Positions 1 to 32,400 are shown, counted from the first letter of the stretch. The stretch is DNA of 64,000 nt from Alphaproteobacteria bacterium (GCA_965178295.1 CBCXTT010000003.1:24114-88113); one strand, 5' to 3'. Notes: generated by a model not told the origin, from the sequence alone. Numbers and translations: made by a program.

Positions 1-1283
1 GTTTGAAGATATGTTTTGATCTCATCGCCAGTCATAAAACTGCCAATCTTGTCGCGCATAATACACTTAATATAGTGCGCAAACCTAGACGCTGCAAGCA
101 TATAGGTGAGTCGAGCAGAAATATTGGCATTAGAATTTGCCTCAGCCGTATTGTATATCTTCGGCTTTTGCGTTGTTTGTGCACCAAAGAACGCCGCTTT
201 GTCTGTTGCCTTTTCGTGACAGAGCGCGATAAACCCGAGATCACTTAACTCTTTTTCACGACGGTCCGTAATCGCGATTTCAGTTGGACATTTAAGGGCA
301 ATATCGCCATCTGTTGTGTGGAAAGTATAAACCGGTAGATCTTCAACCAAGCCACCGCCTTCAACACCACGAATCGCTGCAGTCCATCCAAACTCGAAGA
401 ATGCATTGGTAATACGTTGTCCTAACATGTAGCATGCGTTTGTCCATGTGAACGTGTTTTCCGTAGCGCCGTCAACAGTCTCTGTGTAAGCTAGACCTTC
501 AACCGGGTTGGTATCTGGACCGTATGGCTCACGAATCAAAACCCGTGGTAGCGTCATGATCATATAGCGAGAATCTTCTGTCTCACGGAAAGAGTTCCAC
601 TTTATTTTATCAAGTGAGTCAAACAAACTTGCAAGATCTCGTGGTTTCCCAAGATCTGTGAAGGCCTTCAAGTTAAACATGGAAGGATCTGGCGCCGTGA
701 TCATGGGAGCGTGTGCCGCTGCCGCTACGTTGGACAACTTTGAAACAATCTCCATGTCTGCAGGTGTCGGCTTAAAGTAGTAATCGGCAAGCAAACAAGA
801 ATAAGGGTGCCCACCAAACGTACCATACTCTTCTTCATATATGTGCTTAAAGAGTGTGCTTTGGTCAAATTCAACTGCTTTTTCAAGGTCGTCAGCAATT
901 TCTTGCTTGGAGGCGTTGAACAGACGAATTTTAAGCTCGGTACCGGTTTCTGTGTTCATTACGAGATAGTTAAGCCCGCGCCACGATCCTTCAAGTGCCC
1001 GGAATTTATCATGATGCAGTATTTCATCTAGTTGTTGGCCCAAAAGATTATCAATTTCTTGAATTTTTTGATTTATAAATGCAACAGCATCATTGCTCAC
1101 AACCCCACCTTGTGTATTCAAGACCTCTTGTACGAACGTGGAAACCAGATCTTTTGCGTACACTTCTTGAGATGGATCATGGACCAAGTTTCCTTGGGTT
1201 AAGATTGTGTCTAAAATTCCACCCGTTGGTGCAGCAGCCCCACCTTTTGCAGGTGTAGTTGGTGTCTGTGTTTGATCAGCCAT
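1..1283 (-). CDS. tssC: Type VI secretion sheath large subunit TssC/VipB, N-terminal ~427 aa; the gene runs off the left edge of the window
   Basis: Manual reverse-complement translation from ATG (complement of 1281-1283) gives MADQTQTPTT...LPRVLIREPYGPD...GGLVEDLPVYTFHT...ARLTYMLAASRFAHYIKCIMRDKIGSF, which is diagnostic of the TssC family. No stop in the window explains its absence from the ORF track. Confidence 0.9.
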   Translation of the reverse strand, partial: MADQTQTPTTPAKGGAAAPTGGILDTILTQGNLVHDPSQEVYAKDLVSTFVQEVLNTQGGVVSNDAVAFINQKIQEIDNLLGQQLDEILHHDKFRALEGSWRGLNYLVMNTETGTELKIRLFNASKQEIADDLEKAVEFDQSTLFKHIYEEEYGTFGGHPYSCLLADYYFKPTPADMEIVSKLSNVAAAAHAPMITAPDPSMFNLKAFTDLGKPRDLASLFDSLDKIKWNSFRETEDSRYMIMTLPRVLIREPYGPDTNPVEGLAYTETVDGATENTFTWTNACYMLGQRITNAFFEFGWTAAIRGVEGGGLVEDLPVYTFHTTDGDIALKCPTEIAITDRREKELSDLGFIALCHEKATDKAAFFGAQTTQKPKIYNTAEANSNANISARLTYMLAASRFAHYIKCIMRDKIGSFMTGDEIKTYLQ

Positions 1284-1310
1284 TATTTTTCTCCCTTGAA
1301 CCCTTAAGTC

Positions 1311-1876
1311 TTATGATTTTTTAGGTGGTGACGATGGTTTTGCATCCCCACCTGCTGCAGCACTACTTCCTGCTGGTGCAGCCCCAATATTAAGGGACTT
1401 CTTCAATTGATTTTGCGTGTCTGTGTTGGACAGCACATCTGTAAGTAACGTGTCCAAAGTATCGTTTCCATCTAATTTTGTCATCAAATCATTGAGCTGT
1501 GTGCGCATCTGGTAGAGCTTATTCATTGCAGGGATTTTCTTGATCACGTTTATAGGATCAAAATCATCAATGCTTTGGAATTCGAGCAACAAATTAAGTT
1601 GCGTATCGTCATCTGTTAATTTGTTGTCCACTTTGAATGCGAGGCGTGGCCGTTGTTTTGCCATAATAACATTAAAATTATCACGATCAATTTCAGCAAA
1701 TTTACGTTTTTTTACGGAGTCCATCGGGTTGTCAGGATCGCGATCCCCTGAAAGGTCTGAAATGACACCTACGACAAAGGGTAATTCTTTCATTTCAATT
1801 GCATCACCAATCTCTACATCATAAGTGATGTGTACACGTGGTGGACGGACTTTGTCCAGTAAGTGTTGAGTCTCCA
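1311..1876 (-). CDS. tssB: Type VI secretion sheath small subunit TssB/VipA
   Basis: The ORF track gives 1311..1898 from a GTG. The family-typical start METQHLLDKVRPPRVHITYDVEIGDAIEMKELPFVVGVISDLSG is at the ATG (complement of 1874-1876), preceded by AGGGAG. It lies immediately upstream of tssC as expected. The C-terminus carries an extra Ala/Gly/Ser/Pro-rich tail. Confidence 0.85.
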
Positions 1877-2174
1877 TTTTGATAACTCCCTGTTGCACAC
1901 TTGTTATTAACTTAACTTAACTTAAAACAAGGATGGCATGTTTTTTTTTACTTGTCAAAGGGGGAAGTGGAAGATTTTTTTATAAAAGGTAGGGATAACA
2001 GATAGAACGCTACAGCTATTGTTTAAAATACATATATTCCAAATAATTACATTTGCTCTATTAGGGAAACATATATGCAAAAAAGTATGCTGTGCGTTCT
2101 TCTATCCTTTTCATTTTTAACCTACCGGGTTACAATAGCATGTTGACCAATATATAGCTTGATGAGAGACCGAG

Positions 2175-2837
2175 ATGGGCATACGTTATCCAGAATTTGT
2201 AGAGAATCCAGAAAATCGCTGTCCAGTGATTTTGTTACTTGATACATCCGCATCCATGGCCGGTGATCCTATAATGGCGTTAAATGCAGGGCTTGCAAAT
2301 TTTAAATTTGATGTCGAACACGATGAATTAGCGCTGCTGAGGGTAGAGGTTGCAATTATAACGTTTGGGACAGAGGTGTCTATACTGCAAGATTTTACCA
2401 CGATTGATAACTTTACAGCACCCCAGTTGGACGCCGAGGGTAAAACACCCCTCGGCCACGCTTTGAAAACAGGGCTGGCGCTACTTGAGAAGCGCAAAAA
2501 AATCTATCGTGAGGTGGGTGTGCAGTATTATAGGCCATGGATATTTTTGATTACAGACGGCGCGCCCACAGACGTATGGGAGCAAGCTGCAACCAATATT
2601 CATCAAGCTGAAGCAGAGAATAAACTGAGTTTTTTTACGATTGCTGTTGAGGGTGCGGATATGGAGATATTGCAGCAGGTGGCACCACCGTCACGCCCAC
2701 CGTTTACGCTTCGAGATCTGGCCTTTGATGCCTTGTTTCGCTGGCTATCGGCATCGGTTCGACGTGTTTCTACGGGGACAGTTGGGGGTGATATGGTGGC
2801 CTTGCCAGCAGTTTCAAGCTGGGCTGTGGCACGCTGA
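2175..2837 (+). CDS. Free-standing von Willebrand factor A (vWA) domain protein, TerY-like, cytoplasmic
   Basis: MIDAS motif LLLDTSASM (DxSxS) plus downstream ITFGT and LITDG elements. No TM or signal peptide. First gene of a plus-strand cluster divergent from tssB. Confidence 0.8.
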   Translation: MGIRYPEFVENPENRCPVILLLDTSASMAGDPIMALNAGLANFKFDVEHDELALLRVEVAIITFGTEVSILQDFTTIDNFTAPQLDAEGKTPLGHALKTGLALLEKRKKIYREVGVQYYRPWIFLITDGAPTDVWEQAATNIHQAEAENKLSFFTIAVEGADMEILQQVAPPSRPPFTLRDLAFDALFRWLSASVRRVSTGTVGGDMVALPAVSSWAVAR

Positions 2838-2851
2838 ACGGAGATCTAGTC

Positions 2852-3568
2852 GTGTGGTATATTGGGCATAGTGTGTCGGGAAAGAAAAGAGCACCAGGCA
2901 CTTGTCAAGATGTGTTAAGAGTCATGACCTGTGACCAACAAGTGGTTGCGGTATTATCTGACGGCGCAGGGAGCGCGGCACATGGTGGATTGGGTGCAAA
3001 AGTTGTAGTGCAGGCGGCTTTCTCATTCCTTCTAGGCCAAAAAATGCCAGGCCTACCATTGTGTGAGATGGCCGATGACTTGATTGCGCATGTCCGACAG
3101 ATCTTAATGGAAAACGCACGCAGTGTTCAAGTGCCAATATATGCACTTGATGCAACAATCCTCGTCCTTGTGGCAAGTCCGTTTGGCTATCAGGTGTTGC
3201 AAGTCGGGGATGGATTTATTGTGATTCAAAGTCAGGGAGAGATTGAGCGCATTGGAGCACCGCAAAAGGGTGAATATGCTAATGAGACCGTTTTTATTAC
3301 AGAAGATGGTGCGCAACCTGCGCTTTATGATAGTAAAGTGCCCGTACACTACTGGGCAATATCTAGCGATGGTCTGGAGCCAGTTGCAATTGAGGCAAGC
3401 GCTGGAACACCCCATGCGGCTTTCTTTCGACCGTTTTGGGAGTATTTAGACACAACGCCCGATATTGAGGAGGCAAACCAGGAGTTGCATAGATTTTTAA
3501 CATCCAGCCCTCTTCAGTCACGGATCCACGATGATGTATCTCTAGCGATAGGACATTGGCATGCATAA
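2852..3568 (+). CDS. PP2C-family Ser/Thr protein phosphatase (PppA/TagG-like)
   Basis: AVLSDGAGSAAHGGLGAKVV and VGDGFIV motifs typical of bacterial PP2C (SpoIIE-like) phosphatases. GTG start 15 nt after the vWA stop. The 3' end overlaps the next gene by 8 nt. Confidence 0.8.
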   Translation: MWYIGHSVSGKKRAPGTCQDVLRVMTCDQQVVAVLSDGAGSAAHGGLGAKVVVQAAFSFLLGQKMPGLPLCEMADDLIAHVRQILMENARSVQVPIYALDATILVLVASPFGYQVLQVGDGFIVIQSQGEIERIGAPQKGEYANETVFITEDGAQPALYDSKVPVHYWAISSDGLEPVAIEASAGTPHAAFFRPFWEYLDTTPDIEEANQELHRFLTSSPLQSRIHDDVSLAIGHWHA

Positions 3569-6353
3569 GGTATATAAAGCATCGGGTAGTGCTATTGTGC
3601 TCAAGGCAATTCTTGCGCGTGGAGGCGAAGGAGAAATTTGGCAGACGGATAACCCAGACGTTGTAACAAAGATATATCATGCGCAAGAGGCGATGCCGCT
3701 GGAGAAACTGGAGACCATGATTGCATCACCCCCCCATGATCCAACAATGGAGGCTCATCATGTCTCGATCTCATGGCCGCAGGAAGTGATATATGATGTG
3801 AATCAAGTGCCCATTGGTTTTTTGATGCCACGTGTGTCTGGCTCTCTAACGCTCAGCAACATTTACAACCCTAAGTTGCGACGGAACAAGGCGCCTGGGT
3901 TTAATTTTTATTACCTGCATACAGCGGCCCATAATATTGCGGCGATTATGGATTCTCTGCATGCACGTGGATATGTTCTGGGCGATGTTACGACAGAAAA
4001 CTTTCTTGTAAATGATCGGGCTTTGTGCGCCCTAAGCGATACTGATTCTATGCAAGTTCCGCATGGTAATAAAGTCTTTCGGTGTACAGTGGGATCCGAA
4101 GGCTTTACCCCACCAGAGCTTATCGGACAAGATTTTTATGCAATTGATCGAACGGCATATCACGACCGCTTTGGTTTGGCTATTCTTATACATCTTCTGC
4201 TTTTGGGCAGACATCCCTTTACGGGAACATGGCCTGCAGGGGAGGAACCCCTGTCTCTGGATCAGGCGATTAAAAATGGAATATGGCCTTATGCTACGGG
4301 AAAGAGACTGCAACCATCCATGCTTTCTGTTTCGTTAGATGTGATAGCGCCTCCGTTAAAAGCAGCATTCTTGAGCGCATTTAATGGAGAACCGGAATTG
4401 CGACCGACAGCGGCTGATTGGAAAAAGGTTCTGAGTGCTGCACGGGATGATTTGAGCGCTTGCGCGAAAAATAGCAATCATTATTACGATCACCATTTGA
4501 ATACATGCCCTTGGTGCGCGAGAGCGGAGGAAATGGGCCTTGATATTTATTCTGCTGTTTCAAATGACGTCATTGAGCACAAGGTGCGCTTTAACAAAGC
4601 TGTAAAAACAGACGATCAACGCTTGATGACACAATTATGGCAAGCGCATGAAACACTTCGTGCAGATGCTGCGTATCTGAATTTACGCGGGAGAATGCAA
4701 AAAATTGATAGAGATGTTCGGCTTTTGGATCGATTTAAAGCAGCTTGTCAGGAAGGCGTAGACGATGCAGCGCTGTTCCAGATGATTGCAGATAATCCTC
4801 GTCTTGAGACGCTCTCTGCATTTCTCCATGAAAAAATAAATGGGCAATCATTGGCTGTATTTTTTCAACAGCTTGATGCTCGCCGGAAGGCAATCGTGCG
4901 TGCTCAAGATGCAATTCGCCTAGCTGATCAATATTTTTCAGCAGTCTCTGCAACGCCGGCTCATGAGCAAGCCATCATTGATACTTCTAGGGCGTTAGAA
5001 GATATTCTGGAGACGCAAGGGCGTGCTGTTCCAGGTAATATGAGCGCGCGCTGGGCTATAGCTAAACAGCGCTTAGAATCGTGGAGAATATTTCAGCATG
5101 CACTGGATAAAAATGATTTCACGCTGCATAAAACATGGGTCGTACACGCAGAAAAACTCAAAGGTTTTCTGTTTCCAGATGACGTTCGCATGCACTTAGA
5201 GCAGGTGCAAAAACAAGATAAAATTCATGCAATATTTATGTCTCAGATTCGCAAGCAACCTTATGAAGATGCAGCTTTGATTGCGCTATGGGCCCAATAT
5301 CCCGCATTTCAAAAGACAATCTTTGCAAAAGAAAAGGTGTTTCGCGATAGATCTATTGAAGATTTTGTGTCGGATGCACAGAAACGACAGTTTCTGCTGC
5401 CTCTTTTAGATCACGCTTATGCGACATCTGATGTACACGGTATTTTGAATGCCTGGGATAAAAATGTGTGCGGGTATCATCCAGACTTCAAAAAATTTAA
5501 AAGCTATGCAGAAAAGTCTTTTGATGCTCAAAAGCGCTGGCATAAAGTACGGCGCTACATCTTAGAAGATGATCATGTGCAGATTGTGACGTTGTGGCAT
5601 GATAGTTTTACTACTCAGGCTATGCGAGAAGGATTGGGGCATAAGGTGCGTAATAGCTTTCGCCATCAAGAAACGCGCCGTTCCTCTTTTTCGTCTATGT
5701 ATTTTCCAAGAATGCGATTGCTTGAAAATTATATAGATGTATTGTTTCCCTGGCCTGTTTTGATCGATAGAACAGAAAAACGTGTGCGCACATCCTATGT
5801 TGTGGGCGTGGCTCAATCAACGTATGCAACCCCAGATCTAGAGAGGTGCAAGAGTGCGCTGAATATGCGTTATATATCGGCGGATAAATGTGGAGAAATT
5901 GGCCGATTAATATTACCTAGAACAATGCCAAAACCCCATATATTTATATGGGCGGCAGATTTTACAGCAGGGGGGGTGAGGCCTATAGGTTCTCACTTAT
6001 ATGTAACACACAATCAGAACTTGCCAACGATATCATATGATATTTTCGTTCAATCCTTTTGGAAAAGGGGCCGTACAACCATTGGCGTGCATATAGATGT
6101 AAATCAGGATATGCATTTACCATCGTTAGACGTTGTTGCAACGCATGGTCGCTTCCCTATTTTTCAGGATCCAGAAGCCATTGTTCTTGCTACTCTGCCA
6201 CCGTGTTGTTTAAAGATGGGGGGGCGTCACAAGATTATGATTTCCTCGAAACATCCGATCGAACGTGATATGATATTTCGCCTACAGTCACAGGAGAAAT
6301 TTTTCATGGACAACGTGACATTCGTTTACAATAGGCCACAGAAATATGCATAA
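3561..6353 (+). CDS. Divergent Hanks-type Ser/Thr protein kinase (PpkA/TagE-like) with ~600-aa C-terminal region of unknown function
   Basis: Recognisable kinase subdomains in the N-terminal ~330 aa: GGEGEIW (G-loop), VTKIY (Lys), HARGYVLGDVTTENFLV (catalytic loop D...N), LSDTDS (DFG-like), GFTPPEL (APE-like), DRFGLAILIHLLLLG. Residues ~330-930 are helical with a CPWC pair and no family I can assign. No TM segment. Overlaps the PP2C stop in an ATGCATAA arrangement. Confidence 0.75.
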   Translation: MHKVYKASGSAIVLKAILARGGEGEIWQTDNPDVVTKIYHAQEAMPLEKLETMIASPPHDPTMEAHHVSISWPQEVIYDVNQVPIGFLMPRVSGSLTLSNIYNPKLRRNKAPGFNFYYLHTAAHNIAAIMDSLHARGYVLGDVTTENFLVNDRALCALSDTDSMQVPHGNKVFRCTVGSEGFTPPELIGQDFYAIDRTAYHDRFGLAILIHLLLLGRHPFTGTWPAGEEPLSLDQAIKNGIWPYATGKRLQPSMLSVSLDVIAPPLKAAFLSAFNGEPELRPTAADWKKVLSAARDDLSACAKNSNHYYDHHLNTCPWCARAEEMGLDIYSAVSNDVIEHKVRFNKAVKTDDQRLMTQLWQAHETLRADAAYLNLRGRMQKIDRDVRLLDRFKAACQEGVDDAALFQMIADNPRLETLSAFLHEKINGQSLAVFFQQLDARRKAIVRAQDAIRLADQYFSAVSATPAHEQAIIDTSRALEDILETQGRAVPGNMSARWAIAKQRLESWRIFQHALDKNDFTLHKTWVVHAEKLKGFLFPDDVRMHLEQVQKQDKIHAIFMSQIRKQPYEDAALIALWAQYPAFQKTIFAKEKVFRDRSIEDFVSDAQKRQFLLPLLDHAYATSDVHGILNAWDKNVCGYHPDFKKFKSYAEKSFDAQKRWHKVRRYILEDDHVQIVTLWHDSFTTQAMREGLGHKVRNSFRHQETRRSSFSSMYFPRMRLLENYIDVLFPWPVLIDRTEKRVRTSYVVGVAQSTYATPDLERCKSALNMRYISADKCGEIGRLILPRTMPKPHIFIWAADFTAGGVRPIGSHLYVTHNQNLPTISYDIFVQSFWKRGRTTIGVHIDVNQDMHLPSLDVVATHGRFPIFQDPEAIVLATLPPCCLKMGGRHKIMISSKHPIERDMIFRLQSQEKFFMDNVTFVYNRPQKYA

Positions 6354-7362
6354 TATATTTTCTAAATCATTGTGTCCGTACTGCTACAAGTCTTTTTATC
6401 CGTGGGAAAAAATGTATCGATGTCAGGCCCTGACGCAGGTATGCAAGCCTGTTGAAGATACAGTATATCATCGTCATTTTGGTACAAAAAAAATCATGGG
6501 GCATGTTGTGACACCTTCTATTCGAGGGTTTTCTGATTTGATGCGCTTTTTAAGCAAGGAGTTGGCAACACGTTGTACGAGCTGTGCATCTTTGGTGACA
6601 CAACCAATTTGTCCAGGGTGTCATGGGCATTTGCCTAAGCGACAAGGTAAGACACCTGTCGTACCTATTTTGCTTGCAGGAGCCAGTATTAGCGCTCTTA
6701 AAACGTATCGTTCAGCGCTTCTGCATCAACTCCAGGCGGCTGAAGGGCATATAGCTGGTATGATTGTTGAAGATTTAGCTGAGGGTGACGGCATTATTAT
6801 CTCTTTTGAGATTGCTCAAGGGCGGCGGACCAGGCTACCATGTTTTATCTCCACATTTCCGATGGTAACATGGAAGGACTTGGCGCGTCTCCCTCGTGCG
6901 TTTGATATAAACAAGTTATCTGGTGTGATCGCGGTATTGTCTGGAAAGGCGCTAGGTGATATAGGTCATCAGTATGCGATGACAAGCCTAAAGGCGTTAC
7001 TGGATGTGGCGGATGAGGAAAGAAGCTTTTGGCAGAAAACGCCACTTGCTATTGCCCTAGATGACATGGAAAAGTGGCAGGCTTGTGTTCCTGGCGGGAG
7101 TGTGCTGTGGGGGCGAGGTCAACATACCAAAGGGTATGACGTACAAGATGGATCCAGCGTTTCTGCTGAAGTGCGTGCCTGTTTTGGCTATTGGGCTGGG
7201 TTAAATGTACTGCAGTTTTTAAAGAAAAATTTTAAAACTTATAGTTTTTTTGGTATTTCAAAAGAGCGATATAGTACGGGCCGTGTTGCGCCTTATGCTC
7301 GTGTTGAGGATCCTTATTTTTGGCTGCTCTATCGGCAAAAAATACTTGAAAAAATGCTTTAG
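6346..7362 (+). CDS. Cys-rich double zinc-ribbon protein of unknown function (338 aa)
   Basis: N-terminus has CPYC...(~10 aa)...C...C and then C..C...CPGC, i.e. two zinc-ribbon-like Cys4 clusters in the first ~95 aa. The remainder is unassignable. Start overlaps the kinase stop by 8 nt (ATGCATAA), implying translational coupling. Confidence 0.6.
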   Translation: MHNIFSKSLCPYCYKSFYPWEKMYRCQALTQVCKPVEDTVYHRHFGTKKIMGHVVTPSIRGFSDLMRFLSKELATRCTSCASLVTQPICPGCHGHLPKRQGKTPVVPILLAGASISALKTYRSALLHQLQAAEGHIAGMIVEDLAEGDGIIISFEIAQGRRTRLPCFISTFPMVTWKDLARLPRAFDINKLSGVIAVLSGKALGDIGHQYAMTSLKALLDVADEERSFWQKTPLAIALDDMEKWQACVPGGSVLWGRGQHTKGYDVQDGSSVSAEVRACFGYWAGLNVLQFLKKNFKTYSFFGISKERYSTGRVAPYARVEDPYFWLLYRQKILEKML

Positions 7363-7457: not shown

Positions 7458-8303
7458 ATGATTGTTGGTCTGGTCGTCTTGACAGGCATTATTGTGGCTC
7501 TATCAGTATCTCTCTGGCTTAAACAGGATCACCATCAAGCTGCGCTCACACCGTATACAGTGTATTTTTCTGAGACCGTATCAGGCCTGCCTATTGGCAG
7601 TGCTGTAAAATATCGCGGCATTCGCGTGGGGTCAATTTCTGATATTCATATTCCTAGGAAAAATTCAGAATCCATTGCTGTAAGTGTGATGATTGATAAA
7701 AACACACCTGTTGGAATGGGGAGAAGAGCTTCTTTGCAAATGGCAGGCATTACAGGCGAGTCATATCTGGAGATTAGCGGCGCTGTCCATGATGACGGGC
7801 CTGTATCGCCTCCTGCTGGTGAGTCTGTTCCTGTTATTCCATCTGAAGAATCTTCTATTCAAAAAATTGTATCGACAACCCCTGCGCTTCTAACTCATGC
7901 AGATCAGCTGATTCAGAGAACCGCTACAGTAGTCTCGGTCGAAAACCGTGCAAAATTCTCAAAAATACTTGAAAATGTGCAAGATATTACACAGGCACTT
8001 TCAGATAGTCGGAGTGATTATAGCAATCTGATGTCAAATTTTCGTGTGATCAGTGAAGAAATGCGTACAACACTTCAGTCAATAAATGGCGCTATGGAGA
8101 GCCTAAATTTTGCAGGGAAAAATATTGATCATTTTGTTCAGGATGTGCGCCCCCATATTGCCAGTTTTGCAGAGAATGAGTTGCCTAACTTTGTCCTTTT
8201 AACAGATAAGCTTATGGCAACATTAGGTGATCTTAGGGACGTTTTGAGAACGATCGAGCCTAAGATAGAGTATTTTACCAGATGCGGGCGAAAGGAGTTA
8301 TAA
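7458..8303 (+). CDS. MCE/MlaD-family protein (single MCE domain, N-terminal TM anchor, C-terminal helical region)
   Basis: N-terminal TM MIVGLVVLTGIIVALSVSLWL. MCE domain signature YTVYFSETVSGLPIGSAVKYRGIRVGSISDI...AGITGESYLEISGA. Confidence 0.8.
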   Translation: MIVGLVVLTGIIVALSVSLWLKQDHHQAALTPYTVYFSETVSGLPIGSAVKYRGIRVGSISDIHIPRKNSESIAVSVMIDKNTPVGMGRRASLQMAGITGESYLEISGAVHDDGPVSPPAGESVPVIPSEESSIQKIVSTTPALLTHADQLIQRTATVVSVENRAKFSKILENVQDITQALSDSRSDYSNLMSNFRVISEEMRTTLQSINGAMESLNFAGKNIDHFVQDVRPHIASFAENELPNFVLLTDKLMATLGDLRDVLRTIEPKIEYFTRCGRKEL

Positions 8304-8309
8304 GCTTAT

Positions 8310-8924
8310 ATGAGATGGGTTTTACTATGCTGCCTACCCTTTTTCTTGACTGGGTGCGTTCATATCTTTCCGGAGCAGCCCTCTGGGGTGAAAACAATCG
8401 TCATTCGAGCGGAAGGATGTTCAGCGGTTGAAGGACCAGAGGTAGAATCGCAGTTAATTGTTGAACGTCCTACCACAAGCTCGGAGTTGGATAAAAATAT
8501 CATTGCTGTTATGGGTGAGACAGATACACTTCTGTATATTTCGGATACAGTTTTGTCCGATGACTTGACCGAGGTAATTGAGCGCGCGACAATTGAGGCT
8601 TTTTTGGAGAGTAAAAAAATAAAAGGTGTTGGAGGAAATGGGAGCGGTATTAGCGCAGATTATATTTTGCTGAGCGATATCGACTCTTTTGGTCTATACG
8701 TACCACATAAAGGCGCAACACCAGAAGCACGCTTTGAGATGGTAGGCCAGTTGGTGGATGTTAAAACGCGGAAAGTTGTTTCTAAAAAACGCTTCAGTGC
8801 GATGGTTCCCGTACCAGCAAAGACAGTATCTGTAGTTGCAAACGCACTGAATGATGTTGTTTCGCACGTGCTCAGGGATGTTTTGACCTGGGTGCTTTCT
8901 GCAGGGCATGTGGCGCTAAAATAA
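8310..8924 (+). CDS. Lipoprotein, likely ABC-transport auxiliary component (DUF330/PqiC/YmbA-like)
   Basis: Signal peptide with lipobox FFLTGC. ~200 aa, immediately downstream of the MlaD-like gene, as is typical for DUF330 partners of MCE proteins. Confidence 0.6.
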   Translation: MRWVLLCCLPFFLTGCVHIFPEQPSGVKTIVIRAEGCSAVEGPEVESQLIVERPTTSSELDKNIIAVMGETDTLLYISDTVLSDDLTEVIERATIEAFLESKKIKGVGGNGSGISADYILLSDIDSFGLYVPHKGATPEARFEMVGQLVDVKTRKVVSKKRFSAMVPVPAKTVSVVANALNDVVSHVLRDVLTWVLSAGHVALK

Positions 8925-25284: not shown

Positions 25285-26511
25285 GTGTCTACCCTAAAAT
25301 CTATCATTGCGCCTCTAATAAGCATGCTCTTCTGTATGATGGCAAATGGTTTTTTTGCAACGCTTATGGGCGTTCGAATCAAAGAGCTTGGCCTGAGTAA
25401 TATGATGATTGGCCTTATAACAGCGTCTTTCTATGCGGGCATAATACTGGGTTCTTTTAAAGTAGAACGTTTTATTAAACACGTGGGCTACATTAGAGCC
25501 TATATGGGCTACGCAGCAGTGTGTACACTTTTTACGCTCCTGCAAGGCTTTTACCTCGAAGATCCTTGGACATCTGTTGTGATGAGATTTTTTGTGGGGT
25601 ATTGCATTGGTGGATTTTTTATCACATTAGAGGGTTGGGCCATGTGCGTTACGACCACAAAGAACCGTGGGCTTATTATGGCGTTAATGATGATCACGCT
25701 GTATTTAGGTTATTCACTTGGACAATTTTTTATTGCACTCGACATGTCCAATGATCTTGCTGCGTTTAATATTGTAGCGCTTCTTTTAGTGCTGTCTCTG
25801 TTGCCGATGGTTGTGACACGGAGTACGGCGCCAGCAATTAAAGACACTTCGCTTTTAGGGCTTGAAACTCTTTATAAAGCCTCGCCCACGGGTGTGATCG
25901 GGTGCTTCTTAGTGGGGTGTTTAACAGCAACCATTTATGGGATGTTTCCTGTCTTATTTAAGGCACTATCCTACAGTAGCTTTGATATTTCCCTTGCGAT
26001 GTTTTTAGTTGTGTTTGGAGGGATGTTTGGGCAGTATCCATTAGGAAAAATGTCAGATCGTGTAGGGCGTCGACCTATACTTTTGTGGGGCAGTGTTGCA
26101 GCATTAGTACTTTTATTGCTTATTATCCTGCTATATAAATCTTTGAGCGCGCCTCTCCTTGGCCTATTTTTTTTATTTGGCTTTTTCTGTTACCCCATGT
26201 ATCCACTGGTTTTAGCCCATACGTGCGATGTTGTGCAGCCCAAAGATTTTACAGCCGCTATGCAGAGATTGATTTTAGTCTTTGGCACAGGATCTGCTAT
26301 AGCGCCCATTTTTTCTGCAATTATGCTGGATATTTTTGGGAATTTAGGTATTTTATTGACAGTTTTAAACATTTTATTGGCCATGATTACCCTTTTCATT
26401 TGGCGTCACAATATAGACTCACAGATTGCAGTTGATGACCAAAGGAAATTTGAAGGCGTGTTAAGCCCGATGCCGATTACAGGCATTAAGCGCTTTAAAA
26501 ATAAGCGATGA
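25285..26511 (+). CDS. Major facilitator superfamily transporter
   Basis: 408 aa, ~12 TM segments. MFS motif GKMSDRVGRRPILL between TM halves. GTG start directly after GGAGGTGAT. Confidence 0.85.
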   Translation: MSTLKSIIAPLISMLFCMMANGFFATLMGVRIKELGLSNMMIGLITASFYAGIILGSFKVERFIKHVGYIRAYMGYAAVCTLFTLLQGFYLEDPWTSVVMRFFVGYCIGGFFITLEGWAMCVTTTKNRGLIMALMMITLYLGYSLGQFFIALDMSNDLAAFNIVALLLVLSLLPMVVTRSTAPAIKDTSLLGLETLYKASPTGVIGCFLVGCLTATIYGMFPVLFKALSYSSFDISLAMFLVVFGGMFGQYPLGKMSDRVGRRPILLWGSVAALVLLLLIILLYKSLSAPLLGLFFLFGFFCYPMYPLVLAHTCDVVQPKDFTAAMQRLILVFGTGSAIAPIFSAIMLDIFGNLGILLTVLNILLAMITLFIWRHNIDSQIAVDDQRKFEGVLSPMPITGIKRFKNKR

Positions 26512-26939
26512 CCGCTCCCTTACACGCGCGACTATCAGCACTTCTTTTGCTTATGGAAAAATTAGATGCGTGATCTCAATGGATTGCTGTGATGATTTCT
26601 ATCCCCTCCCTGTTTTTTTTGACAAGCATGGGCAGTCGAAGGATATGGAGAATATACGCCTTTTATCCTTTTTGATTCATTCTTATGCTCGCACAGATGG
26701 AGATCCATGTTCTACATAGCTCGCGCGCATATGATTTCTCATGACTTGCATTTTCTATGCATATAAAAAGAGTATGTGAGTTGGCTATTTGATGTATTGA
26801 TCTCTACTAAACAATCCCTCAAAAAACCGGCTGTGGTGCGTGAGGAATAACGCAGAGGCCAATATTTGGGAGTGAATTGATCCTGATCGTTAATAGAGTG
26901 TGTGTGACATCAATATGTGGGATGCTCATAATTGAGCAC

Positions 26940-29030
26940 TTTTAGTGTATCGACGTTTATTGAGTTGATACGGGGGGTAGTAAGTTAAGAATAATAGCTA
27001 TAACGCCTATTAGGAAGAGCGAGAAAAATTCTTCTCCTGTTATGTGTGATGGTCATGGCCCTGTTTCTTTACCGGTTTTGAAAAGGCAACATCCATATAT
27101 TCTTCGCGCTCTTTTTGAACCCTTTTGTCTTCCAGGCGCACGTTTTGGAACTGGAGTGGTATTTTATTGCATCCTCTGCATCGTTTAATCCTGTTGCTGG
27201 CGCGATATAGAGGTACCTGCTCTTATAGAATTCAAAGCATGCGACTCATTATCCAAACACCTATTTTGTATAGGCGCGTGACGTATATCATGGACCGGAC
27301 TGTTTTCAATTGTACTGCTGCAATTTGAGCCACAACCCCTTTCTTGCAGAGCGATATAAAATAGCCATAGTCTCCTTGGTCACTGGATTAGGAATGTTAA
27401 GTTGTACGCTGCTCAAGGAATTAAAATGAAAAGGTCATCATAGCCACATGGCGCATCAAAGACCTTTATCGCTGAATCTACAAATGCATAAACCGCAACT
27501 TACCTATCTACTTACCTACCTATTATGTATTTTTACACCGTATGACATGGGGGTGTGTATCGTTCATTCGGGATTTTGGTGTTTTGTTGGTTGTGCGTGC
27601 TACTGGAGGATGTAATGCTCATAAATATGCTGCATACAATATTTTGGCGCTCTTGTGCTACAGTAGACTGCACAGGACATGATATTGTGCATACACTTAC
27701 CAAACAATCTATCAAACAACAGATTTAGTTCTTTATTGAGCATTGCGCCCTTGATTTAAGTATGGATAAAGATTGCGTATGTCGCGGTTGGGTAGTACGT
27801 GGAATCTTGAAGACGGTATCTTGCAATCCATTGCGTTCAAGAACACCCAGTCGTTCTAAAAACATGGGGGAGTATGATGTGGTATGGACGCGCCTGTTTA
27901 TACTGTATATACATGCAAGGGAGATGGAAATGCTATGCTTTTGCGGTCAGGACTTTTGCTTCAGGGCTGCGAATGTATGCAATTTCACCTATCTGGAATT
28001 TATGGGTTTGGATGGTTGATTTCAGAAGGTGCGCGTGGCAAGGAAGAGGGTATACCTTCACCAACTCTTAAGGCGAACGGTTTATGGCGTGATATGGACC
28101 ATCTGCCAACGGTCTAGCATATCGAGATGTCATGAGTCGTGCTATGGCAATTGAAATGCAAGAAGGACGAGATTTTTGGCCTGGAAAAGATCATATCCTG
28201 GTTACATCGTGCGTATCTCTCCCCAACGTTGTTGGAAGAGCAGGTTACCTGGTATTTCTGAAAAAGCTAAAATTTTGCAGGCGCTGCTGTAGCGCGTGAA
28301 CCAATCCCTTGTGTTGCCAATATTGTATTATAACATGTGGGGTGTGCCAATAAACTCTCATGGAGAGAAGTGCTGAATCCAGAAAAATTAGATATAGAGG
28401 CATTGGTTCCGAGTTTACTGGAAATTGGAGAAACTGCATGTGTGCCTATTCATGGAGCGAATCGCGTGGGTGTAAACTCTTGAGTTGATCTTGTGGTTTT
28501 GGGCGTGCCGTGGGCTATGGCTGCAAAGGCAATCCACATGACATCTCTATGGGGGTGTCACAACACCCAGAGTTGACCCCCGATGCAATGGTTAACACGC
28601 CATACACAGACTAGATATAATGTGGTACTCAAAGGGTGCAGAAAGTGTTCATGATATCCGCTTTTCCATGCACAAGGTTATGCCGCAGAATTGTGCTGTT
28701 TTTAGAGATGCGTATATGCTCCAGAAAGAGTGCGAAGAACTTGCGAAAGTCCTTGCACGTATGAAACGCGTGCACGGAATACGGATCTGGTGGAAGTCCT
28801 CGATCTTGAGAATTTGATGGTGCAGTCGTTGGTGACGATACATAGCGCGCTTGGAAATTCGTGGCGTTCATGCCCACGCAGATTGCAGAGTAGCGATGAC
28901 GAGCATTAGCTAACGCATACATAACATGGATTGATGCGGCAGGAAACGTAAGTCGACCCGTGCCATTCAAAAAGGCCGGTACTTTCCAGGATTTGAGCGC
29001 ACGATAAACATTATAAAAGGTGCATATATA
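26940..29030 (+). pseudogene. sdhA: Succinate dehydrogenase flavoprotein subunit (sdhA) relic, broken by frameshifts and stops
   Basis: SdhA-like pieces spread across frames: VDTGGSKLRIIAI (cf. VGAGGAGLRAA), LPVLKRQHPY (cf. LSKVFPTRSHT), ELEWY (cf. NWEWHMY), DCTGHDIVHTL (cf. DRTGHALLHTL), RDVMSRAMAIEMQEGRDFWPGKDHI (cf. RDVVSRAMTIEIREGRG..KDHI), ILYYNMWGVP (cf. TVHYNMGGIP). Only ORFs <=152 aa are present. Confidence 0.65.
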
Positions 29031-29032
29031 AG

Positions 29033-29760
29033 TTGCATATATATCGTTACGACTCAGTCTTAGGAGACAATCCACTATTGGATACATATGAAGTCGACCG
29101 CGATATGTGCGGTCTTATGATGTTGGATCTTGTCATAAAAATCAAAAATGAGATTGATCCAACGTTAACGTTTTGGTCGGCTCATGTCGTGAGGGGATTT
29201 TCGGTAGTTGTGCTATGAATATCGATGGTATTAATATTTTAGTCTGCATTACTCCTATAGAAAGCCTTCAAGGAGGAGGTTAAGATTTATCCCTTGTCAC
29301 ACTACCATAATATGCCCATCATGAAGTACTTGGTTCTGGACTTGACCTTGACCCTGGCCTTATGTGCAATATGCCTCTATGCAGCCGTGGTTAAGAAGTA
29401 ATACATTATCCTGCCGGAGATCGTTCAAGCCTTCAAAGCCCAGAAGAACGGCAAAAATAGGATAGTCTTTGGGAGGGGGGTGCATTTTACGTTTCGCCTG
29501 TTTTACAAGTTGTCCTAATTACTGGTGGAGTGGTGGTGGATATTTAGCCCCGCACCATTTTTCTTCAGTCCTGTCGTTGACTGCAAGATCCATGTGCTGA
29601 TCATACGGGGGAGTGCTTAGATGCATTGGAAGATTCTTTTAACTATACCATATGTCATACGATTATGCACTGTACAAAAACATGTCCGTAAGGGTTGAAT
29701 CCCGCACAAGCTATCTTAGAGACAAAAAATGCTCGCGGAACGACACTAGTCCTGTTTGTA
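29033..29760 (+). pseudogene. sdhB: Succinate dehydrogenase iron-sulfur subunit (sdhB) relic with frameshifts
   Basis: [46 protein letters not shown] (cf. [43 protein letters not shown]), then stop. [16 protein letters not shown] in another frame. CPNYWWSGGGYLAP (cf. CPSYWWNGDRYLGP). [23 protein letters not shown] (cf. [23 protein letters not shown]). Confidence 0.7.
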
Positions 29761-32294
29761 AAAATTCTTCTAGTGGAAGCATGCCATGCTCTATTCCAGA
29801 AATTTTTTGGATTAGTCTTTAAGATGCTCATGCGTGCGTTCTTGACCCATTCTTCTGAGAGTGTTGGTCGAGGAAAATATCACTAGATGGATCCTGTGAT
29901 CATAACCCAAAATATGCCCGAAGAAACATGCATGCTCTCACGTTTTTATGCAAGAAACCCAAAAAACTTTATATATGATTAGGCGTCAAGCAGGCTAGAC
30001 GATATTCATTGAGCAGTTTGCTGATCACATGACGCGCTCGCTTTTTGATATTTTTCTTGTTCAACATGTTAGGGCGGTGCGATGTTACTCAAGTGTCTTG
30101 TTGAAAGGATAGTATGTCGCAAAGGTTTTGATAGTGACAACAATCACATACTAATTGTGCCCGATTTTTTCCACGTTGAAAAAAGATGCGCCCCCTTTTT
30201 AATTGGTGTGCAGTACAAGCGTGGTGCACACCAATATCGCCGTTCTGGTGGGGCAGGTGCGAGAAAACGGTTGATTTGAGTGCATGCTGCTCTTAAATCG
30301 CATAAGAAATATGGAAGTCATGCATGTCTTGCTAAAGTAAGGGGGGTCGGAATATCTTATACGTAAAAGAGCAGGCTATTGTTGCGCTCATTTAAGATCG
30401 ATGTGCCACATAGACTGCCCGGTACAGAGAAAGGGGTTTAAGACATAGTTGATTCTGGATGTATAGATGGTGACGGTAGGTCAGAATCGATGCCATTTCA
30501 AGTGCTGATATTAATGTTGTGCATAACAAGAATTTTATCCTATATATGAATATGTCTGTATATATGCATACGGAGATATATGGCAGCTCATGCGCATTCA
30601 TACTGTTATTGACAGGTGTTTACAAGATAAGCACATTATATCCTTACAATGCGGGCACGTCGTCTTCTGGGTACGTTAAGGCAATGAAGCAATGAAACAA
30701 GGATGAGTGGCGCGATATTAATGCCATGCATTCCATGCTTGATGATGTTTAGAAGTGCATGCAAGGTATGTAGATAGGGCCATTATTATGTGGTCTGAGT
30801 ATGCTGAGAGGGGCCGCTCCCAACGTGAAAAAAGAGCGTTATACAGTTGAAATGGATCCGTGTTTTTTGCAAAAAACGCTCTGTTGGATAGGACATGTGC
30901 CGCTGGTGTCGCCCTCTTTTGACTTCAAGACGCTCCCTGCTAAGGTGGTAATGTTGTTGGTGGGATTTTGTATGAGCGTGCGTCTTTAGCAGCATTCATG
31001 CAATTTAGATGTGGATGCGAGACTGGAACTCCCTATTCCTGCCTAATAGTAAGGACAAGTGCATGATGGTATTCTAGGGAAGAATCAGAGAGCATATCGT
31101 TGACAATGTTCTGTGTTGTATTTTCGGCTTTTTTTGAGATGTTTCATTGCTTCAGACCTTTGGTGATATTTGGTGCGGGAAGTGGGAAGAAGAATGGAGC
31201 GCAAGCATCTTTATTGCAGAAGTGAATAGAATTATGTCTGTTCGAATCCATTAAACATTTTAGTCAAATATAGTATGAAATTTGGGTGCGTATTACAGCA
31301 GTCCACTGAGGGTGGAATATGCAGTTTCTTGTCTATCAGCGTTTTGCATCATTTTTTGGAAAACATGATGCAGCTTTTAGAAAAATTTCTATGATTGTCT
31401 CATACCTTCTTTATGTGTTGCAATGAAAACGTTTTTGATAGCCAGTGGTGTATGGGTTGAATACAACACGTATTACTGCTGCACATTGCCTTCGATAGGC
31501 GGATTCTTGGTAAGGTGATTCAATGTGGCGATCACACTGCAGAACGTAATAGAATTGTTGCTGAGTATTAGCGATGTATGTGGAACTTGATAGAGATGGC
31601 CTACTGGGTGCTGGACAAAATAGGAAACCAAAAAAAGAACAGCGTACTGTTGATGGCGGTGAGATGTATTATGCTGCCGATGTAAAACTACCCTTGTCTT
31701 TTACGTATAAGCGAGTGTGCGGGCTGTCATATGCATGAATACGATGTAATTTATTTATGCATAATGTTGAGCCATTCGTGCTATATGTGAACAAGGTGCT
31801 CTCCCCCTTCTAGACTCTACAAGTTTGAAATGAGCAACAGACTACGCGCGATGTTTGTGCAAGATTATTCAACATGAGCAGACGTATACCGATTGTTAGA
31901 GCCTCAATATCGAAGAAGAACGGTATTAGCTTCAATGATTTCTGTGTATCGCATAGATTGTCTTCCAGTGTTGAGACCAACGTGTGTATCAATCTCTAAA
32001 GCGTAATCTATTCAAACAATGATCAGTATCGGTGCTATGTATCGTTCTATTGCCAACGATATAGGCTCGTAGATTAATCATTGAGAACATGCGAGCACTT
32101 TATGGACCAAATTCATAGAAGAGGTCGCCCTGTCATCGCTGTCCTACAATACCAGAAAGAAACCTTATATACATATAGCGGTGAAGGGTTTTCTGTTTTT
32201 CCTAGAAAAGTGTTTTTGATACGATATATGAGGTGCGCGTAGCATTTTTTTTGATGCGTGCATTTTTGGTGCATAAAAAACATAAAAACAGTTC

Positions 32295-32323: not shown

Positions 32324-32400
32324 GCAGCTCACAACTAATGTTATTGAGAGCTCCTGTCCCGTGTGGGATAAGAACTTATTTGGGTAAAAAGGACCGGATT

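What the first reader, a model, noticed from the sequence alone, without database searches (positions are those of the whole stretch)
6346..7362. Translationally coupled double zinc-ribbon protein of unknown function
This 338-aa ORF begins with two Cys4 clusters (CPYC..C..C and C..C..CPGC) and then has ~240 aa with no recognisable family. Its start overlaps the kinase stop. Zn-ribbon adaptors are recurrent partners of vWA/kinase conflict-type systems. This one has no assigned role and could be the output or targeting component.
Basis: partly seen in the sequence, partly recalled or inferred. Interest (0 to 1): 0.65.

Follow-up and report, generated by a model that had tools for sequence, protein, structure and literature searches.

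The report
Dead GTPase partner of a kinase
The "unknown" 338-residue protein is two zinc ribbons fused to a GTPase domain that has lost every nucleotide-binding motif, and it is always encoded directly behind one particular signalling kinase, so it most likely serves as that kinase's non-enzymatic partner subunit.

Summary
ORF 6346..7362 (338 aa) is real, starts 8 nt inside the kinase gene, and carries two Cys4 clusters that are ≥90% conserved in 121 relatives.

The claim of "no recognisable family" fails on deeper search. A profile search finds 398 relatives. Most are ~400-aa zinc-ribbon GTPases of Pfam DO-GTPase2 (PF19993, Kaur et al. 2020). A deep-alignment AlphaFold model (pLDDT 91.8) matches only small GTPases in the PDB.

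The window protein belongs to a monophyletic clade of ~15 clusters. This clade has lost Walker A, DxxGE and NKxD, and ~35 residues between G1 and G3. I call it a pseudo-GTPase.

In all 10 loci where the upstream gene can be read, clade members and their closest active relative sit directly after a TerY-P-type Ser/Thr kinase with the same C-terminal region. About 75 orthologous vWA–PP2C–kinase triads in cyanobacteria lack that region and lack the GTPase.

GAP1 and a second GTPase, which define DO-GTPase systems, are absent.

Best reading: a nucleotide-independent adaptor docked on the kinase C-terminus, with phosphorylation replacing GTP as the switch. The output is unknown. A T6SS cluster is adjacent in 3 of 5 loci.

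This is a new variant of a known, experimentally untested kind, of moderate interest.

The parts
6346..7362 (+). Gene for the 338-aa ZnR-ZnR-pseudoGTPase, a degenerate DO-GTPase2-family protein
   Evidence: ORF. Homology to PF19993-bearing proteins. AF2 model pLDDT 91.8. Foldseek top 50 hits are all GTPases.
6346..6353 (+). 8-nt overlap (ATGCATAA) between the start of this gene and the stop of the kinase gene, indicating translational coupling
   Evidence: Read directly from the sequence. Homologous loci show 1-8 nt overlaps or a 9-nt gap: L001, L005, L008, L009, L010, L091, L007.
6373..6444 (+). Zinc ribbon 1: C10-x2-C13 ... C26-x6-C33. The second half is non-canonical.
   Evidence: C10, C13, C26 and C33 are >=90% conserved in 121 sequences, as are R25 and D38. 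pLDDT is 85-98.
6574..6621 (+). Zinc ribbon 2: C77-x2-C80-x8-C89-x2-C92-H93, a classical CxxC...CxxC
   Evidence: C77, C80, C89, C92 and H93 are invariant or nearly so. There are weak matches to zinc-ribbon proteins YfgJ and ComF and to DUF1272.
6655..7359 (+). GTPase-like (TRAFAC, Ras-like fold) domain, residues ~104-338, including a family-specific C-terminal extension that ends in RVEDPxxWLL
   Evidence: Alternating beta/alpha secondary structure in the model. Foldseek hits include MglA, Arl13B, G-alpha, Arf and Ras, E 1e-5 to 3e-4.
6670..6708 (+). Degenerate P-loop: LLAGASISALKTY in place of the family's IGAxxxGKSxY
   Evidence: Column-by-column motif table. 99 of 103 active relatives have GxxxxGK[ST]. 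None of the ~15 core clade members do.
6850..6873 (+). Degenerate Walker B / G3: STFPMVTW in place of FFDTAGED
   Evidence: 94 of 103 active relatives have DxxGE. The G1-G3 spacing is 53 aa here against a median of 88, so the switch-I segment is deleted.
7048..7077 (+). Degenerate G4: AIALDDMEKW in place of AxxFSKxDxx. The NKxD Lys is lost and Asp is replaced by Glu.
   Evidence: 92 of 103 active relatives have [NST]KxD.
3561..6353 (+). 930-aa Ser/Thr kinase. Kinase domain covers ~1-300, a Zn knuckle is C301/H307/C316/C319, a helical W-rich middle region covers ~330-700, and a beta-rich C-terminal domain covers ~700-930. It is the proposed docking partner.
   Evidence: Pfam Pkinase hit at E 2e-6, 27.8 bits, which is below Pfam's 31.7-bit gathering cut-off. 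Catalytic K37, D142, D160/D162 and TPPE are invariant in 5 orthologues; N147 is Asn in 4 of 5 and His in L008. The C-terminal region co-occurs with the GTPase and aligns to the C-terminus of the proteins encoded upstream of active GTPases (hhalign 70%).
2852..3568 (+). PP2C-family phosphatase with active-site Asp motifs intact
   Evidence: PF13672 at E 9e-35. DGAG, GDGF, SDGL and DD motifs are invariant.
2175..2837 (+). Stand-alone cytoplasmic vWA (TerY-like) protein with an intact MIDAS site (DTSAS...T...TDG)
   Evidence: PF00092 and PF13519. Invariant MIDAS residues. It is the most conserved member of the cassette, at 69-83% identity.
1311..1898 (-). TssB/VipA of a T6SS cluster, transcribed divergently from the cassette. 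This is context only and is not shown to be part of the system.
   Evidence: PF05591 at E 2e-51. The same arrangement occurs in L001 and L007 but not in L005 or L008.

Best explanation
The gene encodes a pseudo-GTPase. It has two N-terminal zinc ribbons followed by a Ras-like (TRAFAC) GTPase domain of the DO-GTPase2 family.

That domain has lost the P-loop, the DxxGE Walker B motif, the NKxD specificity motif and the switch-I segment. It can therefore no longer act as a GTP-driven switch.

It is the fourth, translationally coupled gene of a vWA-PP2C-kinase ('TerY-P'-type) cassette.

**Proposed mechanism**
1. The protein is made in fixed proportion with the kinase.
2. It docks on the kinase's C-terminal beta-rich domain as a permanent adaptor or regulatory subunit.
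3. Its conserved C-terminal extension and its zinc ribbons provide the binding surfaces.
4. In ancestors an active GTPase gated the complex, in most relatives with a GAP1 protein and a second GTPase.
5. In this alphaproteobacterial clade that gate is fixed. Switching is left to the still-intact kinase/PP2C pair and to ligand binding by the vWA MIDAS site.

**Shown:** family membership by homology, GTPase fold, loss of motifs, purifying selection, and strict co-occurrence with the kinase C-terminal region.

**Inferred:** physical docking, loss of nucleotide binding, adaptor role, and the downstream target.
For: 1. **Homology.**
   - A profile of the window protein plus P0002 hits 398 proteins, 113 of them at E<=1e-10.
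   - 27 of 41 aligned hits carry PF19993 DO-GTPase2. Most hits are pre-annotated PF19993.
   - The family consensus is 2xCys4 + IGAxxxGKS + FFDTAGED + SKxD + RVEDPFLWLL. This matches the Kaur et al. 2020 description of DO-GTPases with a Walker-B Glu and two N-terminal ZnRs (PMC7159879).
2. **Fold.** The AF2 model has pLDDT 91.8 and pTM 0.91. The 50 best PDB matches are all GTPases.
3. **Degeneration.**
   - The motif table shows the losses.
   - The 18 short sequences (the ~15 fully degenerate ones plus intermediates P0022, P0025 and P0041) are monophyletic.
   - There is a graded series. P0012 is fully active. P0041 keeps G1 and G4. P0025 keeps G1 only. The window clade keeps none.
4. **Not a relic.** There are at least 15 clusters at 50% identity. 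ORFs are intact. C-terminal motifs are conserved. dN/dS is about 0.09.
5. **Partnership.**
   - In window, L001, L002, L005, L006, L007, L008, L009, L010 and L091 the gene is immediately downstream of an ORF carrying the same kinase C-terminal region, usually overlapping it.
   - About 75 orthologous triads in Nostocales have TPR C-termini instead and no GTPase within 10 kb.
   - The kinase C-terminal ~200 aa align with the C-terminus of the protein encoded just upstream of active ZnR-GTPases in Hsp70-type systems (hhalign 70%, E 3.9e-5).
   - The kinase C-terminal region and the pseudoGTPase evolve at similar fast rates of 23-33% identity. The vWA is at 69-71%.
6. **Other three components intact**.
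Against: - No direct evidence of a kinase-pseudoGTPase complex exists. No multimer model could be run, and no fusion ('Rosetta stone') proteins were found.
- The hhalign link between C-terminal domains is only 70% probability and rests on shallow alignments.
- Loss of canonical motifs does not prove loss of nucleotide binding.
- Context evidence rests on about 10 loci, several of them partial contigs. For L092 (P0041) the 80-residue upstream fragment gave no match to the kinase profile.
- In L008 the vWA gene is replaced by a Peptidase_M15 gene, so the four-gene unit is not invariant.
- The output of the module is unknown.
Confidence: 0.6

Rival explanations
1. The cassette is an accessory regulator of the adjacent type VI secretion system, analogous to the PpkA/PppA/Fha threonine-phosphorylation pathway. 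The pseudoGTPase would be the adaptor that connects the kinase to a T6SS component. This concerns the output and is compatible with the best explanation.
For: - The cassette is divergently adjacent to tssB-tssC-hcp-tssE-tssF in the window, L001 and L007.
- L007 is as distant from the window (30% pGTPase identity) as the loci that are not T6SS-linked. The linkage is therefore old or recurrent.
- From established knowledge: T6SS clusters commonly carry a kinase, a PP2C and, within PpkA, a vWA domain.
- Flanking genes are housekeeping genes rather than defence genes.
Against: - L005 sits next to fliL/fliM, and L008 shows no T6SS gene on 17.7 kb.
- Orthologous triads are abundant in Nostocales with no T6SS gene seen in the one flank I scanned (L055).
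- The vWA here is a separate cytoplasmic protein and the kinase has no evident TM segment, unlike PpkA.
- No FHA protein is visible in the available parts of the clusters.
Confidence: 0.25
2. The cassette is a stand-alone conflict (anti-phage or anti-invader) module of the TerY-P / DO-GTPase kind. The fast-evolving kinase C-terminus and dead GTPase would serve as invader sensor or decoy.
For: - DO-GTPase systems and TerY-P triads are both predicted conflict systems. TerY-P-like modules have shown anti-phage activity (PMC7159879; PMC11090510).
- Inactive NTPases serve as a constant 'third component' in related systems (iSTAND).
- The kinase C-terminus and pGTPase diverge much faster than the vWA.
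- The kinase gives weak PADLOC hits to mad6 and PD-T4-6.
Against: - No effector gene is present in or next to the cassette.
- Neighbours are core housekeeping genes, not defence islands.
- PADLOC gave no hit for the vWA, the PP2C or this protein.
- At least one host carries an ATP/ADP translocase (L008), which hints at an intracellular lifestyle with little phage exposure. That last step is inference.
Confidence: 0.2
3. The protein is still a working nucleotide-binding switch that uses non-canonical residues. The window sequence has a K119-T120 pair one residue out of register with the P-loop.
For: - The window sequence reads GASISALKT, which resembles GxxxxGKT with a one-residue insertion.
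- Intermediates P0041 and P0025 keep a true Walker A.
Against: - K119 and T120 are not conserved even in the 59%-identical homologue, which has LQA there, nor elsewhere in the clade.
- The G3 Asp/Gly, the G4 Lys and the switch-I segment are all missing across the core clade.
Confidence: 0.05
4. The protein is a zinc-ribbon nucleic-acid-binding or transcription factor whose link to the kinase is incidental. Alternatively it is a decaying remnant with no function.
For: - Zinc ribbons often bind nucleic acids.
- The CoCoNuT paper speculates this for the ribbon on TerY-P kinases.
- The genome shows signs of pseudogenisation elsewhere, at 26.5-32.3 kb.
Against: - Gene adjacency with the kinase is strict, and overlaps persist across 23-59% identity.
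- The ORF is intact and dN/dS is ~0.09.
- The AF2 model is high-confidence.
- The most conserved motifs lie in the GTPase-derived C-terminal half, not only in the ribbons.
Confidence: 0.05

Closest known systems
DO-GTPase2 (Pfam PF19993), the two-zinc-ribbon GTPase of GAP1-N2-type 'GTPase-centric' conflict systems (Kaur, Burroughs, Iyer, Aravind 2020, eLife, PMC7159879). The closest match is their 'third theme', which carries a kinase(+ZnR+beta-rich domain), a PP2C and a stand-alone vWA.
   Same: - Homologous over its full length.
- Two N-terminal zinc ribbons.
- TRAFAC GTPase fold.
- Family-specific C-terminal extension.
- Same operon partners: kinase with Zn knuckle and beta-rich C-terminus, active PP2C, stand-alone vWA.
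   Different: - All GTPase motifs (G1, G3 with the signature Glu, G4) and the switch-I segment are lost.
- There is no GAP1 and no second GTPase.
- It occurs in uncultured Alphaproteobacteria, whereas the kinase theme was reported as restricted to actinobacteria.
- No variable effector genes are present.
TerY-P triad: TerY-like vWA + PP2C + Ser/Thr kinase with a C-terminal zinc ribbon (Anantharaman et al. 2012, as summarised in PMC11090510)
   Same: - The first three genes of the cassette have exactly this composition and order.
- The kinase is followed by a Zn knuckle.
- Orthologous triads are widespread in Nostocales.
   Different: - The kinase carries an extra ~600-residue helical + beta-rich extension.
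- A fourth, coupled pseudoGTPase gene is present, which classical triads lack.
- PADLOC gave no hit for the vWA or the PP2C; its hits for the kinase were to mad6 and PD-T4-6, not to a TerY-P model.
Class I pseudoGTPases of eukaryotes, such as the p190RhoGAP pseudoGTPase domains and the AAGAB N-terminal domain (PMC5593906, PMC12490416)
   Same: A GTPase fold is retained while the nucleotide-binding motifs are lost, and the domain is used as a protein-protein interaction module. This is an analogy of mechanism (abstracts only).
   Different: - There is no specific homology beyond the shared Ras-like fold.
- This is a bacterial protein with zinc ribbons.
- Nucleotide binding has not been measured here.
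T6SS threonine-phosphorylation pathway: PpkA (kinase with periplasmic vWA), PppA (PP2C) and Fha1.
   Same: A kinase, a PP2C and a vWA domain are encoded next to T6SS core genes.
   Different: - The vWA is a separate cytoplasmic protein.
- The kinase has no evident TM segment.
- No FHA protein is seen.
- A pseudoGTPase has no counterpart in that pathway.
- T6SS adjacency holds in only 3 of 5 loci.

Membership tests
DO-GTPase2 (PF19993) / DO-GTPase family of Kaur et al. 2020 | Sequence homology to the family | tested here: met
   - A direct hmmscan of the single sequence gave no PF19993 hit.
- A 2-sequence profile hits 113 proteins at E<=1e-10. 27 of 41 aligned hits match PF19993.
- A reverse search with the family alignment recovers P0001 at E 3e-82.
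DO-GTPase2 (PF19993) / DO-GTPase family of Kaur et al. 2020 | TRAFAC-class P-loop GTPase fold | tested here: met
DO-GTPase2 (PF19993) / DO-GTPase family of Kaur et al. 2020 | Walker A GxxxxGK[ST] | tested here: not met
   The window has LLAGASISALKTY. The motif is absent in all ~15 core clade members and present in 99 of 103 other relatives.
DO-GTPase2 (PF19993) / DO-GTPase family of Kaur et al. 2020 | Walker B with the family's conserved glutamate (DxxGE) | tested here: not met
   The window has STFPMVTW. The motif is present in 94 of 103 other relatives. It is named as the family signature in PMC7159879.
DO-GTPase2 (PF19993) / DO-GTPase family of Kaur et al. 2020 | NKxD guanine-specificity motif | tested here: not met
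   The window has LDDME. The motif is present in 92 of 103 other relatives.
DO-GTPase2 (PF19993) / DO-GTPase family of Kaur et al. 2020 | One or two N-terminal zinc ribbons (two in GAP1-N2-type systems) | tested here: met
   Eight conserved Cys in two clusters. The description is in PMC7159879 section 29.
DO-GTPase-GAP1 system (GTPase-centric conflict system) | Adjacent GAP1 protein (GAP1-N1/N2, GAP1-M, GAP1-C) | tested here: not met
   - The cassette genes and flanks show no GAP1 domains in the window.
- Precomputed Pfam shows none in L001, L005, L007 or L008.
- GAP1 is present next to active relatives in L003, L004 and L093.
DO-GTPase-GAP1 system (GTPase-centric conflict system) | Second paralogous DO-GTPase (present in 38% of systems) | tested here: not met
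   An hmmsearch with the family profile finds one hit in the 64-kb window and one hit per clade locus.
TerY-P triad (for the three upstream genes) | TerY-like vWA + PP2C + Ser/Thr kinase with C-terminal zinc ribbon, in one operon | tested here: met
   - Pfam VWA and PP2C_2 pass their cut-offs. Pkinase scores 27.8 bits, below its 31.7-bit cut-off.
- The Zn knuckle C301/H307/C316/C319 is invariant.
- Gene gaps are 14 nt, -8 nt and -8 nt.
- The definition is taken from PMC11090510.
T6SS threonine-phosphorylation pathway (PpkA/PppA/Fha) | Membrane kinase with periplasmic vWA, an FHA-domain substrate, and constant linkage to T6SS | tested here: not met
   - The vWA is a separate protein.
- No FHA domain was found in the scanned genes.
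- T6SS is adjacent in 3 of 5 loci.
- TM segments were not formally predicted.
Class I pseudoGTPase (functional category) | GTPase fold without nucleotide binding | not testable with these tools
   The fold is met and the motifs are lost. Absence of binding needs biochemistry.

The most novel reading that the evidence does not exclude
In a lineage of uncultured, possibly host-associated Alphaproteobacteria, a GTP-gated conflict module was stripped of GAP1 and of GTP binding. It was then re-used as a dedicated cytoplasmic phospho-switch for the neighbouring type VI secretion system. The dead GTPase would act as the adaptor that brings the kinase to the T6SS baseplate or sheath machinery, a role played by FHA or TagF proteins elsewhere.
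Probability: 0.15. Interest if true: 0.7.

Novelty: new variant of a known kind. Interest (0 to 1): 0.45.

Why it matters
DO-GTPase systems and TerY-P triads are known only from comparative genomics. How the GTPase, the kinase and the vWA talk to each other has not been tested.

This clade offers a natural minimal version of four genes with no GAP1 and no effectors. In it the GTPase has been reduced to a binding module. A graded series leads from active to dead: P0012, then P0041 and P0025, then the window clade.

That series points to the kinase C-terminal domain as the GTPase's direct partner. It also gives a tractable pair of proteins for structural and binding studies.

It adds a clear bacterial example of a pseudo-GTPase.

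If the T6SS linkage is functional, it would describe a new kind of T6SS post-translational control.

Tried and rejected
- **Single-sequence scans.** Pfam, NCBIfam, PADLOC and PHROGs gave only noise for this protein.
- **PDB sequence search.** It gave only marginal zinc-ribbon hits: YfgJ at E 0.9 and ComF at E 2.
- **First AF2 run.** The run on a 2-sequence alignment was unusable at pLDDT 36. It was replaced by the 121-sequence run.
- **Word-indexed protein search.** It found only one homologue.
- **Genome-collection scan with A1.** It found nothing.
- **Metagenome scan.** It returned a single extra locus, L009.
- **Failed look-ups.** Contexts for P0001 and P0201 could not be retrieved.
- **BLASTP of kinase against L003.** Comparison with the protein upstream of the active GTPase in L003 showed nothing. 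Only profile-profile comparison gave a signal.
- **Fusion proteins.** No kinase-GTPase fusions were found among the family hits. The N- and C-terminal extensions are MORN, TSP3, SH3, FGE-sulfatase or unknown.
- **Plasmid search.** It found only Rhodococcus GAP1-N2 systems without a kinase.
- **Promoter and terminator scans.** Results were no better than chance.
- **tssB-vWA intergenic alignment.** It shows a conserved block near tssB, but I could not assign it to a known promoter type.
- **Literature on 'SaeA'.** This Pfam Fn3_SaeA label led nowhere.
- **Rejected idea: still-functional P-loop.** K119/T120 is not conserved in the nearest homologue.

Full report
**1. The observation**

ORF 6346..7362 (+) encodes 338 residues. 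Its ATG lies 8 nt inside the end of the 930-aa kinase ORF (3561..6353), in the sequence ATGCATAA. The PP2C gene overlaps the kinase start in the same way.

The protein begins with C10-P-Y-C13...C26...C33 and C77-x2-C80...C89-P-G-C92. All eight cysteines are invariant or at least 90% conserved across 41 and 121 relatives.
- A 59%-identical homologue sits in the same synteny.
- dN/dS between the two is about 0.09, although dS is saturated.

**2. What the 'unknown' 240 residues are**

Single-sequence scans of Pfam, NCBIfam, PADLOC and PHROGs gave nothing. A full HMMER search with a profile of the two close sequences found 398 proteins at E<=1e-3 and 113 at E<=1e-10.

Most hits are ~400-aa proteins. 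Their alignment shows, in order:
- two Cys4 ribbons
- a Walker A (IGAxxxGKSxY)
- FFDTAGED
- SKxD
- a C-terminal RVEDPFLWLL

Twenty-seven of 41 aligned members match Pfam PF19993 (DO-GTPase2) and 14 match DO-GTPase1. Sources name some of them 'TRAFAC clade GTPase'.

This is the family that Kaur et al. 2020 defined as double-GTPases. They are TRAFAC GTPases with a Glu in Walker B. In GAP1-N2-type systems they have two N-terminal zinc ribbons (PMC7159879).

An AlphaFold2 model built on 121 sequences is confident, with pLDDT 91.8 and pTM 0.91. Its 50 best PDB matches are all GTPases, including MglA, Arl13B, G-alpha, Arf, Ras and atlastin.

**3. It is a dead GTPase**

In register with the family motifs, the window protein differs at every site:

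| Site | Family | Window protein |
|---|---|---|
| P-loop (G1) | IGAxxxGKSxY | LLAGASISALKTY |
| Walker B (G3) | FFDTAGED | STFPMVTW |
| G4 | FSKxD | LDDME |
| G1-G3 spacing | median 88 residues | 53 residues |

Among 103 other relatives, 99 keep G1, 94 keep G3 and 92 keep G4. None of the ~15 core clade representatives keeps any.

The apparent K119-T120 is one residue out of register. It is not conserved even in the 59% homologue.

The short sequences form one clade in a neighbour-joining tree.

Intermediates exist:
- P0041 retains G1 and G4.
- P0025 retains G1 only.
- P0012, among the nearest full-length relatives, retains everything.

What the dead clade keeps is the two ribbons and the C-terminal half: LPxxSxL, HxGGY, DGxxVSxE, GxWxGxN and RxEDPxxWLL. 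These are shared with active members and are therefore likely interaction surfaces. That last point is inference.

**4. Context**

The gene is the last of a four-gene cassette:
- vWA at 2175..2837
- PP2C at 2852..3568
- kinase at 3561..6353
- this gene at 6346..7362

The first three genes form a TerY-P-type triad as described in PMC11090510. All three look functional:
- The vWA has an intact MIDAS site.
- The PP2C keeps its Asp motifs.
- The kinase keeps K37, D142, D160/D162 and TPPE in all five orthologues, and N147 in four of five (L008 has His). It is followed by an invariant C/H/C/C zinc knuckle.

Clade members were found in these arrangements:

| Locus | Arrangement |
|---|---|
| L001, L005, L007 | Same four-gene cassette |
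| L008 | PP2C-kinase-pseudoGTPase, with a Peptidase_M15 gene in place of the vWA |
| L002, L006, L009, L010 | Partial contigs where the upstream ORF matches the kinase or its C-terminal region |

Junctions are 1-8 nt overlaps. In L007 the junction is a 9-nt gap once the start codon is corrected.

The active relative P0012 (L091) is also coupled by a 4-nt overlap to an ORF that matches kinase profile positions 379-923 at E 3e-63. The pairing therefore predates the loss of the motifs.

**5. The partner is the kinase's C-terminal region, not the triad**

A genome scan with the kinase alignment returned 80 loci, mostly Nostocales. About 75 of them carry orthologous vWA, PP2C and kinase genes in the same order. 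Their kinases match only profile positions 1-340 and end in TPR repeats. None has a family GTPase within 10 kb.

The result is a clean two-by-two association:
- C-terminal region present and GTPase present: 10 loci.
- Both absent: about 75-80 loci.
- Mixed cases: none clear. L092's 80-residue fragment is uninformative.

The last ~200 residues of the kinase also align, end to end, with the C-terminus of the DZR/Fn3 protein. That protein is encoded just upstream of active ZnR-GTPases in the Hsp70-type systems of L003 and L004. The hhalign result is 70% probability at E 3.9e-5, from shallow alignments.

The kinase C-terminus and the pseudoGTPase are the fastest-evolving parts of the cassette, at 23-33% identity between distant loci. 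The vWA is at 69-71%.

**6. What is missing**

Active relatives in L003, L004 and L093 sit in canonical GAP1-N2 systems with GAP1. In L003 and L004 there is also a second DO-GTPase.

The window cassette and its clade have no GAP1, no second GTPase and no effector-like gene.

Kaur et al. reported the kinase/PP2C/vWA theme as restricted to actinobacteria and as part of GAP1-N2 neighbourhoods.

The window's SecY is only 67% identical to the nearest named relatives, which are Azospirillum, Skermanella and Parvibaculaceae. The host is therefore an uncultured alphaproteobacterium.

**7. Mechanism**

I commit to the following model.
1. The protein is a nucleotide-independent adaptor or regulatory subunit.
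2. It binds the kinase's C-terminal beta-rich domain.
3. The ancestral GTP gate has been frozen.
4. Switching is left to phosphorylation and dephosphorylation, and to vWA ligand binding.

Shown here: homology, fold, motif loss, purifying constraint and strict co-occurrence. Inferred: physical docking, absence of nucleotide binding and the adaptor role.

The closest mechanistic analogues are:
- eukaryotic class I pseudoGTPases
- the inactive STAND NTPases used as a constant third component in MoxR-vWA systems

**8. Output**

The output is unknown. The cassette is divergent from tssB of a T6SS cluster in the window, L001 and L007. In L005 it is next to flagellar genes, and L008 shows no T6SS.

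A T6SS-regulatory role is plausible, since a kinase, a PP2C and a vWA domain also characterise the PpkA/PppA pathway (established knowledge). It is unproven. A stand-alone conflict role is the other main option, but there is no effector and no defence-island context.

**9. Verdict**

The protein is a degenerate member of a known, purely computational family, in a reduced operon variant that has not been described. Interest is moderate.

Noticed in passing
window 26511..32338: This ~5.8-kb stretch lies just upstream of rpsL/rpsG/fusA. It has no ORF of 100 aa or more on the + strand and only one 152-aa ORF on the - strand. It has no Rfam match even at E 0.1 and no repeats. One fragment (27878..28114, +) weakly matches FAD_binding_2, and a neighbouring frame reads like an SdhA/NadB-type flavoprotein. 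It is probably a block of frameshifted pseudogenes, which hints at genome decay or assembly errors.
   Followed up: partly
window 1..1898 (- strand); L001 1..5545; L007 1..5432: A T6SS core cluster (tssB, tssC, two Hcp-like genes, tssE, tssF) is divergent from the cassette in three loci. A conserved block...GGATGGCATGTTTTTTT...CTTGTCAAAGGGGGAAG..., lies ~60 nt upstream of tssB. Its reverse complement contains TTGACA. The block was not assigned to a promoter type.
   Followed up: partly
window 7458..8924; L001 11073..12568; L008 12293..13659: An MlaD-domain protein and an ABC_trans_aux lipoprotein lie next to the cassette in three loci. In L008 they are in the opposite orientation. This may be retained synteny or a functional link to the envelope.
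   Followed up: no
window 3561..6353, kinase residues ~330-700: The middle of the kinase is a helical region with repeated short motifs centred on invariant Trp residues (LW..., W577, W632, W660, W679). It has no Pfam family, and L008 lacks about half of it.
   Followed up: no
L011-L090 (e.g. L055 8366..12136): An orthologous vWA-PP2C-kinase(+TPR) triad is nearly universal in Nostocales cyanobacteria. The kinase domain is 40-46% identical to the window's. In L055 a DUF4388 response regulator is encoded upstream on the opposite strand.
   Followed up: partly
L093 (Rhodococcus sp. JS3073 plasmid NZ_CP113952.1) 7768..22509: A GAP1-N2/DO-GTPase2 system lies a few kb from TerC/DUF475 and two TerD-vWA(TerF-like) genes. 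This places DO-GTPase systems next to tellurite-resistance-type genes.
   Followed up: no
L092 1394..2395; P0015 N-terminus: MORN-repeat proteins are associated with family members. One is encoded just downstream of the intermediate P0041. Another is fused to the N-terminus of the active GTPase P0015.
   Followed up: no
L008 1..918: The contig carrying clade member P0007 encodes a TLC-family ATP/ADP translocase. This suggests an obligate intracellular host for at least part of the clade.
   Followed up: no
L007 9949..11029: The called start of P0005 is too far downstream. An in-frame ATG at 9949, preceded by GGGGGA, restores the first CPYC knuckle (MGFQETIHCPYC...) and leaves a 9-nt gap after the kinase stop.
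   Followed up: yes
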